From assembly GCF_009914755.1 (NCBI RefSeq), contig NC_060925.1: 64,000 nucleotides of DNA. One strand, 5' to 3'. The notes below the pieces were generated by a model. The model did no database searches, had not been told where the DNA came from, and saw only the letters and a program-made list of their open reading frames with translations. A program made the position numbers and the translations under genes. Numbering within the stretch: position 1 is the stretch's first letter; every line of letters begins with the position of its first letter. The DNA is from the human T2T-CHM13v2.0 reference genome, Homo sapiens. Positions 32,401 to 39,959 of this stretch are shown one piece after another.

Positions 32401-35400
32401 TCAAATAGCAACTAAAAGACACGATGCCAGGTCAAGAGAGGGACTACAGAAGATTAGAAATGTCTTTGTATTTCAGGCTGGGCACGGTGGCTCAGGCCTG
32501 TAATCGCAGCACTTTGGGAGGCCGAGGCCGGCGGATCACTTGAGGTCAGGAGTCTGAGACCAGCCTGGCCAACATAGTGAAACCCCGTCTCTACTAAAAA
32601 TACAAAAATTAGCCAGGTGTGGTGGTGTGCACCTGGAGTCCCAGCTACTCAGGAGGCTGAGGCAGGAGAATCGCTTGAACCCCGGAGGCGGAGTTTGCAG
32701 TGAGCTGAGATCACACCACTGCACTCCAGCCTGGGTGAGACTCCATCTCAAAAAAATAAAAAAGAAACGTCTTTATATTTTAATAAATTTAATGGCACTT
32801 TCCCCCACTTTTTGAACAAGGAACCCTGCATTTTCATTTGGCGGCAGGCCCAGCAAATTATGCAGCTGGTCCTGCTCCTAGCATTCACTCTCTTTGTGGA
32901 GCTGCCTTCGGTGCCTCCCTACTTCATAGCTCAGGGAGGAGATACAAGCTCATAGCAACAGCTTACATTTATGAAGCACCTACTATGGGCCAGTAACCAG
33001 TTTAAGCCCTTATCTCTATTAATTTATTTAATCCTCCTAACAGTGCTACAAAGGATTATTATGCCCCCCTTGTGGATGAGGAAACTGAAGTGCTATGAAT
33101 AGAAAGAGCACTGAATTGAGAGTTCAGAAACCAGAATGTTCATTTTAACTCCTCACTGACCTGCTGTGTGACCTGGAGCAAATGTGTAAAACTCAGTTTC
33201 TTTGTCTATAAAATGGGGGGAAAAAATGACCAACCTTGCAGTATTACTAATCCCATCGCATGACAGAATGGATGCATACCTGCCTTATAAACTGCATGAA
33301 AGGGACTCCTCTTATATTTAAACTGCTATGCGGCAACTGCAGGTGGTCCACTGAGACCACCTAAAAAAACCTCTCATTTTAGAGAGGAGTAAACCAGCTC
33401 CAGCCCCTGCTAAGTCATGCTCTCTAGGTGTCGGACCCCAGTGCCTAGGACCCATCCTGGGGTGGGGGGTAGGGGGAAATAAAAATAACAGAATTGAACA
33501 TAGGAGTGAAAATGGTGCTTGTAAAAGAAAGCTGTGTGTAGGGTCTCAGTTTGTGATGGTTGTTGCTGTTTCAGGTAATAGGCCACTGGTGCTGAATTTT
33601 GGAAGTTGTACCTGACCTTCATTTATGTTCAAATTTGACCAGTTCAAGAGGCTTATTGAAGACTTTAGTTCCATAGCAGATTTTCTTGTCATTTACATTG
33701 AAGAAGCACATGCATCAGGTACAGAAAGATTCTCTGCCTCTTCTACCTCTTCCCACTGTCTTTTCTCTCTCCCTTTTCCCCAGGCCCCATCTCAAGGTTG
33801 GGAGGTGGAAGGAGGAAGAGGAGGGGAGAGGGAAAGAGCCACTATTCACTGAGCACCCACCACTCCCAGGCCCTGCACTGGGCTAACCTCACAGTCTGTG
33901 CTTTCAACCAGGGTACAGAGAGCAGAACACCTGGAGTGACAGGGTCTGGCTAGGAGAGGATTCTAACATTTTGATCGGATAAATAGGGAAGTCAAGGGAG
34001 AAGAACTGATTTGAACACATTTACAAAGAATTCAGACCCAAAATGTCACAGGTGAAATGACGGCCTTATGGCTATTTTTTTTTTTTTTTTTTTTTGAGAT
34101 AGGGTCTTGTTCTGTCGCCTGAGCTGGGGCTGGAATGCAATAGCACTCACATGGCTCACTGCAGCCTCAACCTCCTGGGCTAAATCGATCCTCCTGTCTC
34201 AGCCTTCCAAGTAGCTGTACTGCAGGCATACGCCACCATGCCCAGCTAGTTTTTTGTATTTTTTGTAGAAACAGAGTTTCACCATGTTACTCGGGCTGGT
34301 CTCAAACTCCTAGGTTCAAACAATCTGCCCACCTCGGCCTCCCAAAGTGCTGGAATTACAGTCGTGAGCCACTGCACCCAGCCTATATTTGTATTTTTGA
34401 AAGAACACTGTGGTGAAGAATTAGGAGAAAAAATAGTACTTAAACTCAGTATGAATTAGAATCATCTGGAAGGCTGTTAAAACGCAGATGTCTGGGTCCC
34501 ATTTCTAGTCCATCCACGCTGACGCCTAGGGTTTGCACTACTTAACAAACTTCCAGGTGACGCTGATGCTGTTAGTCTGGGGACACACACTTAGAGAACT
34601 ACTGATCTAAACCCTTGCCTCTCCAAGTATGGTCTAGGCGCCAGCAGTCTTGGCATCCTGGGAGTTAGATGGACTCTCAGTTCCACCTTCGACAGACCGA
34701 ATCAGAATCTTCCTATAACAAGGTCCCCAAATGATTCATGCACATTCAAGATCAAGGAGTGCTGGTTTATTGGACTATTTCACGTTGAAGAGCAGGGGTC
34801 TGGCAGACAGAAGCCCTGGGCTTCAGTTCTGGATCAATCACTAATTCCTGACGTGACCTTGCACATTCAACCATAATGGGAAACCAGGCCAAATCATTGC
34901 CAAGGGCTCCTCTGAGAACCTCAGTTAAAAGTGAGGGGCTATTTAGTCTGCAGGAAGTGTGTGCTGTGTCAATGGGACTCGGTGCCTGGCCTTTCTCTTG
35001 TAGATGGCTGGGCTTTTAAGAACAACATGGACATCAGAAATCACCAGAACCTTCAGGATCGCCTGCAGGCAGCCCATCTACTGCTGGCCAGGAGCCCCCA
35101 GTGCCCTGTGGTGGTGGACACCATGCAGAACCAGAGCAGCCAGCTCTACGCAGCACTGCCTGAGAGGCTCTACATAATCCAGGAGGGCAGGATCCTCTAC
35201 AAGGTGGTGACCTGGGGACAGGGGGCCCAGGGAGGGCAAAGGGGCCCAGGGAGGGCAAGGGCAAAGAGAAGGCTTTGCATCAAGCAGAACTGGATTCAAA
35301 TCACCACCCAGCCACTTACCAGCCATGTGACCATGGGCGAGTGCTTTCACTTCTTGGAGTTCCTTCAATTTCCTCTTCTGCAAAATGGGAATGTTGGTCT

Positions 35401-38400
35401 CCACCTCACGGGGGATGAAATAATGCACACGAATGTCCCTAGCATTTGGACTGGAGCTGCATCCTCCCGGCTTCCTTTTGAACCCAGATGATGGCCCAGT
35501 CCTGGTCTGGTTTCAAACTCAGAGACAGAGAATGTTGTTTTTGTTCTCTGTTTTTTGGGTTTCTTTCTTTCTTTTTTTTTTTTGAGACAGACTCTCACTC
35601 TGTTGCCCAGGCTGGAGTGCAGAGGGGTGACCTTGGCTCACTGCAACCTCCACCTCCCGGGTTCAAGCAATTCTCCTGCCTCAGCCTCCCAAGTAGCTGG
35701 GACTACAGGCGCACACCACGCCCAGCTAATTTTTGTATTTTTAGTAGAGACGGGGTTTCACCATGTTAGCCAGGCTGGTCTTGAACTCCTGGCCTCAAGT
35801 GATCTGCCCGCCTTGGCCTCCCAAAGTGTTGGGATAACAGGCGTGAGCCACCGTGCCCGGTCTGTTTTTGTTTTATGAACAATGTTCAGAGAGGGGAATT
35901 GACTTGTCCAAGGTCACGCTGGGCAAGGCTCTGATTTCAATTCTAAAGCCCTTGATCGGGTGGGCCAGAAATGAGAAGGTCTGAAGCTGCTAACATTTGC
36001 GGCAGGCCTGAACCAGGGCTGGCGGGGTAGAAGTCTCAAGGGGAATGGAACCCGTGGTTTGGAGCTGGAAATGCTGGACGCAGGGATGTGCGGCAGAAAT
36101 GCATTTCAGGCTCCCTTTCTTGTGATTGCTTCCTCTCAAAAGTTCCAGCCTGGTCAGGGTGAGGGAGGTAAGCACAGCCTCTGACTCTTTAGACACAGTT
36201 GGCTTGGCCTCCCTTAAGAAGGTAGAAACTACATTTTAAAGCTATTGAAGGGATTTCAAGCCTTGGAGAGCAGATGAAACCAAGTATGTGGATGCTCCTC
36301 TGTCCACAGATCAAGATCAAGCTGACCCTACCTATTCAGATAAAACAAGCAAAAACTTGCAGGCAAATTCCCAAGGTGCAAGGGTCACAGTAGAAGAATG
36401 TGGGTCCTTCATCCTTTCCTGTACCTTGGGACATGGTTCAGGCATGATTGAGGCACCCTGGGCACTGAATCCCTACCTTGGGTTAGGCCCTGTGCAAATA
36501 CTGGAAACACAAAAATGAATTGAAAATGACTCATACCTAGCCGGGTGCAGTGGCTTACGCCTGTAATCCCAGCACTTTGGGAGGCCGAGGCAGGCTGATC
36601 ACTTGAGGTTGGGAGTTGGAGACCAGCCTGACCAACATAGTGAAACCCTGTCTCTACTAAAAATACAAAATTAGCCAGGCGTGGTGGCGCATGCCTGTAA
36701 TCCCAGCTACTTGAGAGGCTGAAGCAGGAGAATCGCTTGTACCCGGGAGGCAGAGGTTGTGGTGAGCAGAGATCGCACCATTGCACTCCAGCCTGAGCAA
36801 CAAGAGTGAAACTCTGTCTCGGAAAAAAAAAAAAAAAAAAAAAAATGACCGGCCGGGCGCAGTGGCTCATGCCTGTAATCCCAGCACTTTGGGAGGCTGA
36901 GGCAGGCAGATCACGAGGTCATGAATTCGAGACCAGCCTGACCAACATGGTGAAACCCTGTCTCTACTAAAAATACAAAAATTAGCCAGGCATGGTGGCA
37001 TGTGCCTATAATCCCAGCTACTTGGGAGGCTGGGGCAGGAGAATTGCTTGAACCCGGGAGGCGGAGGTTGCAGTGAGCCGAGATCGCACCACTGCACTCC
37101 AGTCTTGGCAACAGAGCGAGACTCCGTCTCAAAAAAAAAAAAGAAAAAAAGAAAATGGCCCACACCCTTACTTCAAGGTACTCACAGGCTGAGGGATAAG
37201 GAAGACCCAAGTAAGACTATTACAGTGTCCCAACTGCTGGGGGACTCCAGAGCAGGGGTCAGCACGCCTTTTCTGTATAGGGCCTGATAGTAAATATTTT
37301 CAACTTTGTGCCAAGTAATCCCTGTCGCAACAATTCAATTCTGCTGTTATAGCACAACAGCAGCTGCAGACGACATGCAAATGAAAGCATGTGAGGCATC
37401 AGGACTAACCTGGCTCTCAGACTGTAAGTTTTTCAACCTCTGGGGAAGGGTAGGCTTCTCAGAGGGGGCAGCAATTGCTTGGGCCTTAAAGGATAAGGAG
37501 TTGGCCTAGTGAGCACAGTGAGTGAAAATCACTGCGGTATAGGGAAGAGGGTGGGTGGAGGCACTGAGGCATAGTAGGGCAGAGTGTGAATAAACGATTG
37601 GAGACATTGGGGTTACACAGGGGTCTCATTCTAGACCAAGGGGTTTGGTCTTCATCTTAGGGCAAAGGAGAGCCACTGACGGGTTTGGAGCAGGAAAGAG
37701 ACATGATCGGACCTGTACTTAGAACGTTCACTGGCTCACGGCTGTAACTCTAGCACTTTGGGAGGCTGAGCCGGGCAGATCACCTGAGGTCAGGAGTTCA
37801 AGACCAGCTTGGCCAACATGGTGAAACCCTGTCTCTACTAAAAGTACAAAAAAATTAGCCAGGCGTGGTGGCGTGTGCCTGTAATCCCAGCTACTTGTGA
37901 GGCTGAGGCACGAGAATTGTTTGAACCTGGGAGGCGGAGGTTGCAGTGAGCAAAGATTGTGCCAGTGCACTCCAGCCTGGGCGACAGAGTGAGACTCTCT
38001 CAAAAAAAAAAAAGAAAAGAAAAAGAAAGTTCACTGGTTCCATGGCCGGGCGTGGTGGCTCATACCTGTAATCCCGGCACTTTGGGAGGCCAAGGCGGGC
38101 AGGTCACTTGAGGCCAGGAGTTCGAGACCAGCCTAGCCCACGTGGCGAAACCCTGTCTCTACTAAAAATACAAAAATTAGCCAGGCGTGGTGGAGTGCAC
38201 CCGTATTCCCTGCTACTCAGGAGGCTGAGGCAGGAGAATTGCTTGAACCTGGGAGGCAGAGGTTGCAGTGAATCAAGATTGCGCCATTGCACTCCAGCCT
38301 GGGCAACAGAGCGAGACTCTGTCTCAAAAAAAAAAGAAAAAAGTTCACTGGTTCCTGGTTGAAAAATGGACAGGAGGGAGCAGGGACTAAGGACTGGGGA

Positions 38401-39870: not shown

Positions 39871-39959
39871 CTGTGTCTTTACATATTTGTTTATGATGGC
39901 CACAGCCTAAAGTACACACGGCTGTGACTTGATTCAAAAGAAAATGTTATAAGATGCAG
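39871..39959 (+). promoter_or_regulatory. SECIS element (type 1)
   Basis: ATGA 39893-39896; helix II CACAGCC 39901-39907 / GGCTGTG 39920-39926; apical AAA 39909-39911; TGAT 39930-39933 completes the GA/GA kink-turn core; lower helix ACAT/ATGT and CTGTGTCT/AGATGCAG. Confidence 0.97.

What the first reader, a model, noticed from the sequence alone, without database searches (positions are those of the whole stretch)
33613..39959. Stop-codon recoding system: in-frame UGA at the DIO1 active site paired with a distant 3' UTR SECIS hairpin
Seen: the spliced frame has one internal TGA (33613-33615) in the motif FGSCT*PSF and stays open through exons 3-4 to TAA 38907. About 1355 nt further along the mRNA is a hairpin with ATGA (39893), helix CACAGCC/GGCTGTG, apical AAA (39909) and TGAT (39930). 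Established: this is a type-1 SECIS bound by SECISBP2/eEFSec that directs selenocysteine insertion. It is the most striking system in the window and the ORF track misses it (its ORF restarts at 33625), but it is known biology rather than undescribed.
Basis: partly seen in the sequence, partly recalled or inferred. Interest (0 to 1): 0.9.

Follow-up and report, generated by a model that had tools for sequence, protein, structure and literature searches.

The report
DIO1 selenocysteine codon and its SECIS
This is the well-known human DIO1 gene, in which a stop codon inside the coding sequence is read as the rare amino acid selenocysteine with the help of a hairpin at the far end of the message; it is real, but it is textbook biology.

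Summary
Both halves of the observation hold at the stated coordinates. TGA 33613-33615 is codon 126, the only internal stop in the 249-codon spliced DIO1 frame. It sits in FGSCT*PSF. The deiodinase Pfam profile runs straight across it. DIO2 and DIO3 carry TGA at the same position.

The 3' UTR hairpin at 39884-39941 is the only Rfam match over its gathering score in the 64 kb window: SECIS_1, 38.5 bits against a cut-off of 35. It starts 1355 nt after the UGA.

The three short motifs alone occur at chance frequency, 6 found against 6.07 expected. Only this site stacks 9 standard pairs on the core. Genome-wide, all 10 listed SECIS_1 matches lie in selenoprotein genes or GPX1 pseudogenes.

Published tables agree, and report SBP2 binding at 2.7 nM and reporter testing of the element.

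Verdict: confirmed, interpretation supported, already known. Small extras: an extended lower stem, predicted antisense IFT25 models over the SECIS, no stable structure after the UGA, and public DIO3 models truncated at the UGA.

The parts
23094..23430 (+). DIO1 exon 1, coding part (codons 1-112 and the first base of codon 113)
   Evidence: RefSeq annotation. Matches PF00837 profile positions 1-100, E 3.6e-27.
33575..33718 (+). DIO1 exon 2, which holds the active-site motif and the Sec codon
   Evidence: AG/GT splice sites. PF00837 match over profile positions 99-150 with 1 TGA inside.
33607..33609 (+). Codon 124, TGT: the proximal Cys124
   Evidence: Read. Its role with Sec126 is described in PMC9141512 (passages).
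33613..33615 (+). In-frame TGA, codon 126, read as selenocysteine; the next base is C
   Evidence: It falls in the one-position gap (114) between the Pfam matches of the pieces on either side. 'Sec126' and 'U126C' in PMC9141512.
35004..35203 (+). DIO1 exon 3
   Evidence: PF00837 profile positions 150-216, E 2.9e-29. Matches solved Dio3 (4tr3) and Dio2 (9h48) chains.
38841..38909 (+). Coding part of exon 4, ending in the true stop TAA 38907-38909
38910..39996 (+). 3' UTR, 1087 nt, with no masked repeat inside
   Evidence: Annotation.
39884..39941 (+). SECIS element, form 1
   Evidence: RF00031, 38.5 bits against gathering 35, full model 1-64.
39893..39897 (+). 5' side of the SECIS core (ATGA plus T)
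   Evidence: It faces 39930-39933 with U.U, G.A, A.G and U.U oppositions.
39898..39907 (+). Helix II, 5' arm
   Evidence: 9 of 10 standard pairs with 39920-39929; C39900 opposite A39927 is the mismatch.
39908..39919 (+). Open 12-nt apical loop holding AAA at 39909-39911
   Evidence: The model's mini-stem aligns poorly here: 3 pairs, one non-standard, around a 2-nt loop.
39920..39929 (+). Helix II, 3' arm
39930..39933 (+). 3' side of the SECIS core (TGAT)
39871..39879 (+). 5' arm of a possible extended lower stem under the SECIS (inferred)
   Evidence: 9 of 9 standard pairs with 39951-39959. The 106-nt fold has z -2.96, with 1 of 200 shuffles as stable.
39951..39959 (+). 3' arm of the possible extended lower stem (inferred)
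39978..39983 (+). ATTAAA, likely polyadenylation hexamer, 13 nt before the annotated transcript end (inferred)
   Evidence: Sequence. That ATTAAA is a poly(A) signal variant is recalled knowledge.

Best explanation
The window holds human DIO1, the type 1 iodothyronine deiodinase. Its mRNA carries UGA at codon 126, in the thioredoxin-fold active site two residues after Cys124. A form 1 SECIS hairpin lies 1355 nt downstream, about 55 nt before the end of the 3' UTR. The SECIS has a core of non-Watson-Crick pairs (AUGA opposite UGAU), a 10-pair helix II and an AAA in an open 12-nt apical loop. It binds SECISBP2, which recruits eEFSec carrying Sec-tRNA(Sec) to the ribosome paused at the UGA. Selenocysteine is then inserted and translation runs on to the real stop, UAA, giving a 249-residue selenoenzyme. 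Shown here: the codon, the frame, the family, the paralog conservation and the SECIS model match with its anatomy. Taken from papers: SBP2 binding, reporter testing of the element and the catalytic role of Sec126. Inferred: when selenium or the factors are short, the UGA acts as a stop 303 nt before the last exon junction, so the mRNA should be open to nonsense-mediated decay.
For: Frame: 1 internal stop in 249 codons, against 9 and 11 stops in the other two frames. Family: exon 1, the post-TGA piece and exon 3 match PF00837 at E 3.6e-27, 5.2e-15 and 2.9e-29 over profile positions 1-100, 115-148 and 150-216. The whole-exon-2 match contains the TGA. Paralogs: DIO3 and DIO2 have TGA followed by C at the same place, in NFGS[CA]T*P[PS]F. 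The next 34 residues are 50% and 53% identical to them. SECIS: it is the only Rfam match over gathering in 64 kb and the only match below E 0.6 in the last exon and its flank. All 10 of 10 listed genome-wide matches lie on the sense strand of 8 selenoprotein genes or 2 GPX1 pseudogenes, with DIO1 fifth. DIO2 and DIO3 each have one SECIS_1 match near their 3' ends, at 38.2 and 35.4 bits. Anatomy. Papers: human DIO1 SECIS, apparent Kd 2.7 nM for CT-SBP2, form 1 (PMC3328465 Table 1). Type 1 class, and all 26 human elements tested in a luciferase UGA reporter, with Dio1 not among the six weak ones (PMC2761289). Dio1-3 found in all vertebrates examined (PMC3316567). Catalytic Sec126 (PMC9141512). 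The trans factors SECISBP2, EEFSEC, SEPSECS, PSTK, SEPHS2 and TRU-TCA1-1 are annotated in this genome.
Against: No result contradicts it. Weak points follow. The 58-nt hairpin alone is not unusually stable: z -1.07, with 30 of 200 shuffles folding as well. The motif pattern alone is at chance level. The model score is only 3.5 bits over the cut-off. Sub-threshold SECIS_1 matches also occur in 3 of 14 control prokaryote genomes, none over the cut-off. No DIO1 ortholog sequence or ortholog SECIS was examined here, so no covariation test was possible. Selenium insertion itself cannot be shown by sequence analysis.
Confidence: 0.97

Rival explanations
1. The TGA is a plain stop. The gene would make a 125-residue product, and the downstream exons would either be untranslated or be translated separately from ATG 33625.
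For: The mechanical ORF list splits here. Many public models of the paralog DIO3 end at this very point: 36 of 54. Termination at the UGA is expected as a side outcome when selenium is short (passages of PMC1919489).
Against: One family profile runs through the TGA without a break. The catalytic residue lies at this position. The TGA is kept in three paralogs, each with a SECIS. ATG 33625 would give a fragment lacking the active site.
Confidence: 0.02
2. The UGA is read through by a near-cognate tRNA (Trp, Cys or Arg) without the SECIS, helped by the leaky UGA-C context.
For: The base after the TGA is C in all three paralogs. That UGA-C is a weak termination context is recalled knowledge.
Against: A SECIS over threshold sits in the same mRNA. 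It binds SBP2 and was tested for driving UGA recoding in reporters. No stable structure follows the UGA that might promote read-through: z +0.63 to +1.53 in 6 of 6 windows tried.
Confidence: 0.01
3. The SECIS_1 match is a chance hit in an AT-rich UTR and the true element lies elsewhere.
For: The score is only 3.5 bits over gathering. The hairpin alone has z -1.07. The motifs occur at chance frequency.
Against: E is 3.5e-4 for the window and 6.9e-6 for the UTR. No other candidate appears in the UTR. All 10 of 10 genome-wide matches are in selenoprotein loci. Published work tested the human DIO1 element, although those papers give no coordinates that I could match to mine.
Confidence: 0.01

Closest known systems
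Type 1 deiodinase SECIS (Berry et al. 1991 Nature 353:273; seen only as a reference-list entry, content recalled)
   Same: This is the same gene and element. The eukaryotic 3' UTR SECIS was first defined on type 1 deiodinase mRNA.
   Different: Nothing of substance. This is the T2T-CHM13 copy of the locus.
Human DIO2 and DIO3 recoding pairs
   Same: Same Pfam family. TGA at the homologous position, followed by C. One SECIS_1 match near the 3' end of each: 38.2 and 35.4 bits.
   Different: Their SECIS elements are form 2, with a paired mini-stem above the AA(A) bulge (alignments; Table 1 of PMC3328465). The DIO2 match holds a second in-frame TGA. In DIO3 the whole reading frame and the SECIS lie in one unspliced stretch, with the SECIS about 990 nt after the UGA.
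GPX1 SECIS (form 1)
   Same: Form 1/type 1 class, listed together with Dio1, Gpx2, SelN and SelV (PMC2761289 Figure 1 legend). Matches the same model at 42.8 bits.
   Different: Unrelated protein family.
Bacterial SECIS (fdhF type, bound by SelB); recalled, not tested here
   Same: A hairpin that redefines UGA as selenocysteine.
   Different: The bacterial element lies in the coding sequence right after the UGA and is bound directly by the elongation factor. Here no stable structure follows the UGA and the element is 1355 nt away in the UTR.

Membership tests
Eukaryotic SECIS (Rfam RF00031) | Covariance-model score at or above the curated gathering score | tested here: met
   38.5 bits against 35, full-length match to model positions 1-64.
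Eukaryotic SECIS (Rfam RF00031) | Core of AUGA on the 5' side facing GA on the 3' side (tandem G.A/A.G) | tested here: met
   The sequence places G39895 opposite A39932 and A39896 opposite G39931, flanked by U.U oppositions. The pair geometry itself cannot be tested with these tools.
Eukaryotic SECIS (Rfam RF00031) | Helix II of about 9-12 pairs between the core and the unpaired AAR motif | tested here: met
   10 positions, 9 standard pairs, then U and AAA 39909-39911.
Eukaryotic SECIS (Rfam RF00031) | Lies in the 3' UTR of an mRNA with an in-frame UGA, beyond the minimum spacing | tested here: met
   983 nt after the UAA and 1355 nt after the UGA. The published mammalian range is 207-5207 nt, with a minimum of 51-111 nt (PMC3316567 passages).
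Eukaryotic SECIS (Rfam RF00031) | Binds SECISBP2 and drives UGA recoding | not testable with these tools
   Published: Kd 2.7 nM for CT-SBP2. Luciferase UGA258 reporter, Dio1 not among the six weak elements.
Form 1 (type 1) SECIS | AAR motif in a single large apical loop, with no mini-helix above it | tested here: met
   Both folds leave 39908-39919 open. The model's mini-stem has a non-standard pair around a 2-nt loop here, whereas it is well paired in DIO2 and DIO3. Published class is form 1/type 1.
Iodothyronine deiodinase (Pfam PF00837) | Profile match over the cut-off along the whole domain | tested here: met
   Three pieces at 95.6, 55.8 and 102.5 bits against a cut-off of 27, covering profile positions 1-216 of 237. 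The last 23 codons (exon 4) were not scanned.
Iodothyronine deiodinase (Pfam PF00837) | Selenocysteine codon in the conserved active-site motif | tested here: met
   TGA in NFGSCT*PSF, homologous to the TGA of DIO2 and DIO3. Sec126 is catalytic.
Iodothyronine deiodinase (Pfam PF00837) | Conservation of the Sec codon in DIO1 orthologs | not tested
   No vertebrate genomes are on hand. PMC3316567 lists Dio1 among 21 selenoproteins found in all vertebrates (passages). Its alignment, Figure S1, is a supplement that I could not see.

The most novel reading that the evidence does not exclude
The minimal SECIS may sit on top of a longer structure. A 9-pair lower stem (39871-39879 with 39951-39959) makes the 106-nt region more stable than 199 of 200 shuffles. 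A common 3' UTR variant maps 8 nt beyond that stem, at 39967. Predicted long IFT25 transcripts run antisense across the whole element. If the lower stem or an antisense duplex controlled access of SECISBP2, Sec insertion into DIO1 could be tuned by the neighbouring gene or by the variant.
Probability: 0.05. Interest if true: 0.3.

Novelty: already known. Interest (0 to 1): 0.08.

Why it matters
It matters mainly as a control for the scan. A reader with no tools correctly recognised a split genetic signal, a codon and a hairpin 6.3 kb apart in the genome, that mechanical ORF calling misses. Automated annotation often gets such sites wrong: 36 of 54 public DIO3 models returned here stop at the UGA and 8 more splice around it. 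Biologically, DIO1 activates and clears thyroid hormone, and its output depends on selenium supply through this recoding step. All of that is established.

Tried and rejected
1. Thermodynamic support for the minimal hairpin was weak: z -1.07. I do not use stability as evidence. Nearest-neighbour energies do not score the non-Watson-Crick core.

2. Motif-only search gave 6 found against 6.07 expected, so I rejected it as evidence.

3. I looked for a Sec-redefinition-like structure after the UGA. Six windows within exon 2 all folded less stably than their shuffles, z +0.63 to +1.53. None is proposed.

4. I looked for a second SECIS in the last exon. There is none; the other six matches have E 0.64 or worse and sit far below their cut-offs.

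5. Ortholog test through protein databases. I queried with the 169 residues of DIO3 before its TGA, chosen so that full-length deiodinases fell inside the length filter.
- It returned 54 DIO3-type proteins and no DIO1 ortholog.
- 115 further candidates from unnamed sources were left out by the tool.
- 36 of 54 end at FGSC[TS] or FGSC, 8 continue but skip the Sec stretch, and 10 lack the motif.
- 0 of 54 show U or C at the site.
- This shows a stop at that site across many vertebrates, but not which stop codon, and nothing about DIO1 itself.
- I ran no further search on DIO1 exon 1 because the verdict would not change.

6. The loose regular expression also hit FGSIS* in L006 (DIO2 upstream region). 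It lacks the flanking family motif, so I dropped it as chance.

7. The genome-wide SECIS_1 list missed DIO2 and DIO3, which pass when scanned directly. Only 129 of about 50,830 candidates were scored. The list therefore speaks for specificity, not completeness: 8 of the 25 selenoprotein genes I looked up.

8. Search for rs12095080 together with SECIS found 0 papers.

9. Martin et al. 1996 (PMC1369361) is not held.

10. Solved structures searched with exon 3 found only Dio3 (4tr3, 4tr4) and Dio2 (9h48), with no DIO1 entry.

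
Full report
**Observation**

The window sequence has TGA at 33613-33615 inside exon 2. I spliced the four RefSeq exons in a script. This gives a 750-nt frame with stops only at codon 126 (this TGA, followed by C) and at codon 250 (TAA 38907-38909). The other two frames carry 9 and 11 stops, and all introns have GT/AG ends. The peptide context is FGSCT*PSF.

In the last exon, ATGA is at 39893-39896, CACAGCC at 39901-39907, AAA at 39909-39911, GGCTGTG at 39920-39926 and TGAT at 39930-39933. 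The distance from the end of the UGA to the A of ATGA is exactly 1355 nt of mRNA. From the UAA it is 983 nt, and the mRNA is 1861 nt long.

**The coding side**

I gave the pieces as window references, never across the stop.
- Exon 1 matches Pfam PF00837 (iodothyronine deiodinase) at profile positions 1-100, E 3.6e-27.
- The 34 codons right after the TGA match positions 115-148, E 5.2e-15.
- Exon 3 matches positions 150-216, E 2.9e-29.

A six-frame search of the whole genome with the same profile found 6 matches. Three are the DIO1 exons, with the exon 2 match spanning profile positions 99-150 and holding 1 TGA. One is DIO3 (1 TGA) and two are DIO2 (2 TGA in the main one).

All three paralogs read NFGS[CA]T*P[PS]F, with TGA followed by C. 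The 34 residues after the stop are 50% identical to DIO3 and 53% identical to DIO2.

Passages of PMC9141512 name Sec126 as the catalytic residue of human DIO1 and Cys124 as its proximal partner. This fits codons 124 (TGT, 33607-33609) and 126 here.

**The RNA side**

A scan of all 64 kb, both strands, against 4227 Rfam families gave one match over a gathering score. It is RF00031 SECIS_1 at 39884-39941 on the + strand: 38.5 bits against a cut-off of 35, E 3.5e-4, covering the whole model. A permissive scan of the last exon and its flank found no second candidate. The six other matches have E 0.64 or worse and lie far below their cut-offs.

The anatomy is as follows.
- U39894, G39895, A39896 and U39897 face U39933, A39932, G39931 and U39930. 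This is the arrangement expected for the non-Watson-Crick core.
- Helix II is 39898-39907 with 39929-39920. It has 9 of 10 standard pairs, with C39900 opposite A39927 as the mismatch.
- The apical loop is 12 nt (39908-39919) and holds the AAA.

Both folds leave that loop open. The model's mini-stem aligns here with a non-standard pair around a 2-nt loop. In DIO3 and DIO2 the same mini-stem is well paired. The element is therefore form 1 and the two paralog elements are form 2.

**Is it more than chance?**

The three motifs with free spacing occur 6 times in the window against 6.07 expected from shuffles. They carry no weight alone. Of those 6 sites, only this one stacks 9 standard pairs on the core; the others stack 2 to 4.

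Across the whole genome the tool listed 10 SECIS_1 matches. All 10 lie on the sense strand of GPX1, SELENOW, DIO1, SELENOF, SELENOV, GPX4, SELENOT or SELENON, or of the pseudogenes GPX1P1 and GPX1P2. DIO1 ranks fifth.

That list is a lower bound. Only 129 of about 50,830 candidates were scored, and DIO2 and DIO3 are missing from it although they pass when scanned directly. In the tool's control, 3 of 14 prokaryote genomes gave sub-threshold matches and none passed the cut-off.

Against the element: the 58-nt hairpin alone is not unusually stable, with z -1.07 and 30 of 200 shuffles folding at least as well. This is expected for a structure whose key part is not scored by the energy model. I therefore do not use stability as support.

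**Mechanism**

Shown here are the codon, the frame, the family, the paralog conservation, the SECIS match and its anatomy.

Taken from papers:
- Table 1 of PMC3328465 (passages) lists the human DIO1 SECIS with an apparent Kd of 2.7 nM for the C-terminal part of SBP2 and 19.9 nM for SBP2L, form 1. It lists DIO2 and DIO3 as form 2.
- PMC2761289 (passages, section 11 read whole; figures not held) places Dio1 among the human type 1 elements.
- The same paper tested all 26 human elements behind a luciferase UGA258 reporter. Dio1 is not one of the six weak ones.
- PMC3316567 (passages) lists Dio1-3 among the selenoproteins found in all vertebrates examined. It gives a UGA-to-SECIS range of 207-5207 nt in mammals.

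SECISBP2, EEFSEC, SEPSECS, PSTK, SEPHS2 and the tRNA-Sec gene are annotated in this genome.

The order of events is established knowledge that I recall, not something tested here. The SECIS binds SBP2, SBP2 recruits eEFSec with Sec-tRNA, and the complex delivers it to the ribosome at the UGA.

Inferred: the UGA lies 103 nt before the exon 2-3 junction and 303 nt before the last junction (exon lengths from the annotation). By the 50-55 nt rule quoted in PMC1919489 (passages), the mRNA should be open to nonsense-mediated decay whenever the UGA is read as a stop.

**Surroundings**

- The SECIS ends 55 nt before the annotated transcript end. An ATTAAA sits at 39978-39983.
- No masked repeat lies in the last exon.
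- All five coding and two non-coding RefSeq DIO1 transcripts share the last exon and so carry the SECIS. Two of them, NM_001039715.3 and NM_001324316.2, skip exon 2 and have no Sec codon.
- On the minus strand, the annotated overlap of IFT25 with the SECIS comes only from two Gnomon models that end at 39420. The curated IFT25 transcripts end at 45483 or 50471. The 60 nt before that model end hold no AATAAA or ATTAAA.
- The 106-nt stretch 39860-39965 folds with z -2.96, with 1 of 200 shuffles as stable. This is due to a 9-pair lower stem, 39871-39879 with 39951-39959. Its reality cannot be tested without orthologs.
- Six windows after the UGA fold less stably than their shuffles. No local recoding stimulator is evident.
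- Two published 3' UTR variants map as follows, assuming c.* numbering counts from the UAA. c.*1058 A>G falls at 39967 (A here), 26 nt past the SECIS. c.*29 C>T falls at 38938, where this reference carries T (Table 1 of PMC7280282).

**Comparison, novelty and verdict**

This is not merely like a known system; it is the known system. Type 1 deiodinase is the mRNA on which the eukaryotic 3' UTR SECIS was defined (Berry et al. 1991). I saw that paper only as a reference-list entry and otherwise recall its content.

Every defining feature that could be tested was met. Binding and function rest on papers. Novelty: already known. Interest is low. The result is useful as a positive control for the scan.

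It is also a reminder of how often public gene models break at Sec codons. Of 54 DIO3-type proteins returned, 36 end at the UGA, 8 splice around it and 0 show U or C there.

**Limits**

- No DIO1 ortholog or orthologous UTR was examined.
- The vertebrate Dio1 alignment of PMC3316567 is a supplementary figure that I could not see.
- The figures of PMC2761289 are not held, so I cannot give the exact rank of the Dio1 element.
- The papers give no coordinates, so the identity of their DIO1 SECIS with 39884-39941 is inferred. It rests on this being the only candidate in the UTR.

Noticed in passing
window 39420-39996, minus strand: The annotated IFT25 overlap with the DIO1 3' end, antisense to the SECIS, rests only on two Gnomon models (XM_054336988.1, XM_054336989.1). 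Curated IFT25 transcripts end at 45483 or 50471. No AATAAA or ATTAAA lies in the 60 nt before the model end at 39420.
   Followed up: partly
window 39871-39879 and 39951-39959: A 9-pair lower stem (two G.U pairs) extends the SECIS hairpin. The 106-nt region folds with z -2.96, against z -1.07 for the 58-nt core.
   Followed up: partly
window 38938 and 39967: Two published DIO1 3' UTR variants map here if c.* numbering starts after the UAA. c.*29 C>T falls at 38938, where this reference carries T. c.*1058 A>G falls at 39967 (A here), between the SECIS and the ATTAAA hexamer. No paper in the library links the second variant to the SECIS.
   Followed up: partly
window 33616-33718: No stable RNA structure follows the UGA. 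All six windows tried fold less stably than dinucleotide shuffles, z +0.63 to +1.53.
   Followed up: yes
window 23070-39996 (DIO1 transcripts): Two RefSeq coding isoforms skip exon 2, so they lack the Sec codon while keeping the SECIS. One isoform skips exon 3 and, after the Sec codon, shifts frame to a stop 5 nt into exon 4.
   Followed up: no
L007 and L010 (chrX and chr21; GPX1P1, GPX1P2): Two GPX1 pseudogenes keep SECIS_1 matches of 44.4 and 41.2 bits, bracketing the parent GPX1 at 42.8 bits.
   Followed up: no
L001 212-285, minus strand (upstream of DIO3): A full-length mir-1247 precursor match at 106.8 bits against a cut-off of 70 lies about 1.1 kb upstream of the DIO3 start codon, on the opposite strand.
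   Followed up: no
P0001-P0054 (public DIO3-type proteins): 36 of 54 models end exactly at the Sec codon, 8 splice around the active site and 10 lack the motif. None shows U or C at the site. This is a systematic annotation failure at UGA-Sec.
   Followed up: yes
L002 (DIO2, chr14): The main DIO2 match holds 2 in-frame TGAs, so there is a second one besides the active-site codon. Its SECIS lies about 250-320 nt from the 3' end of the gene.
   Followed up: no
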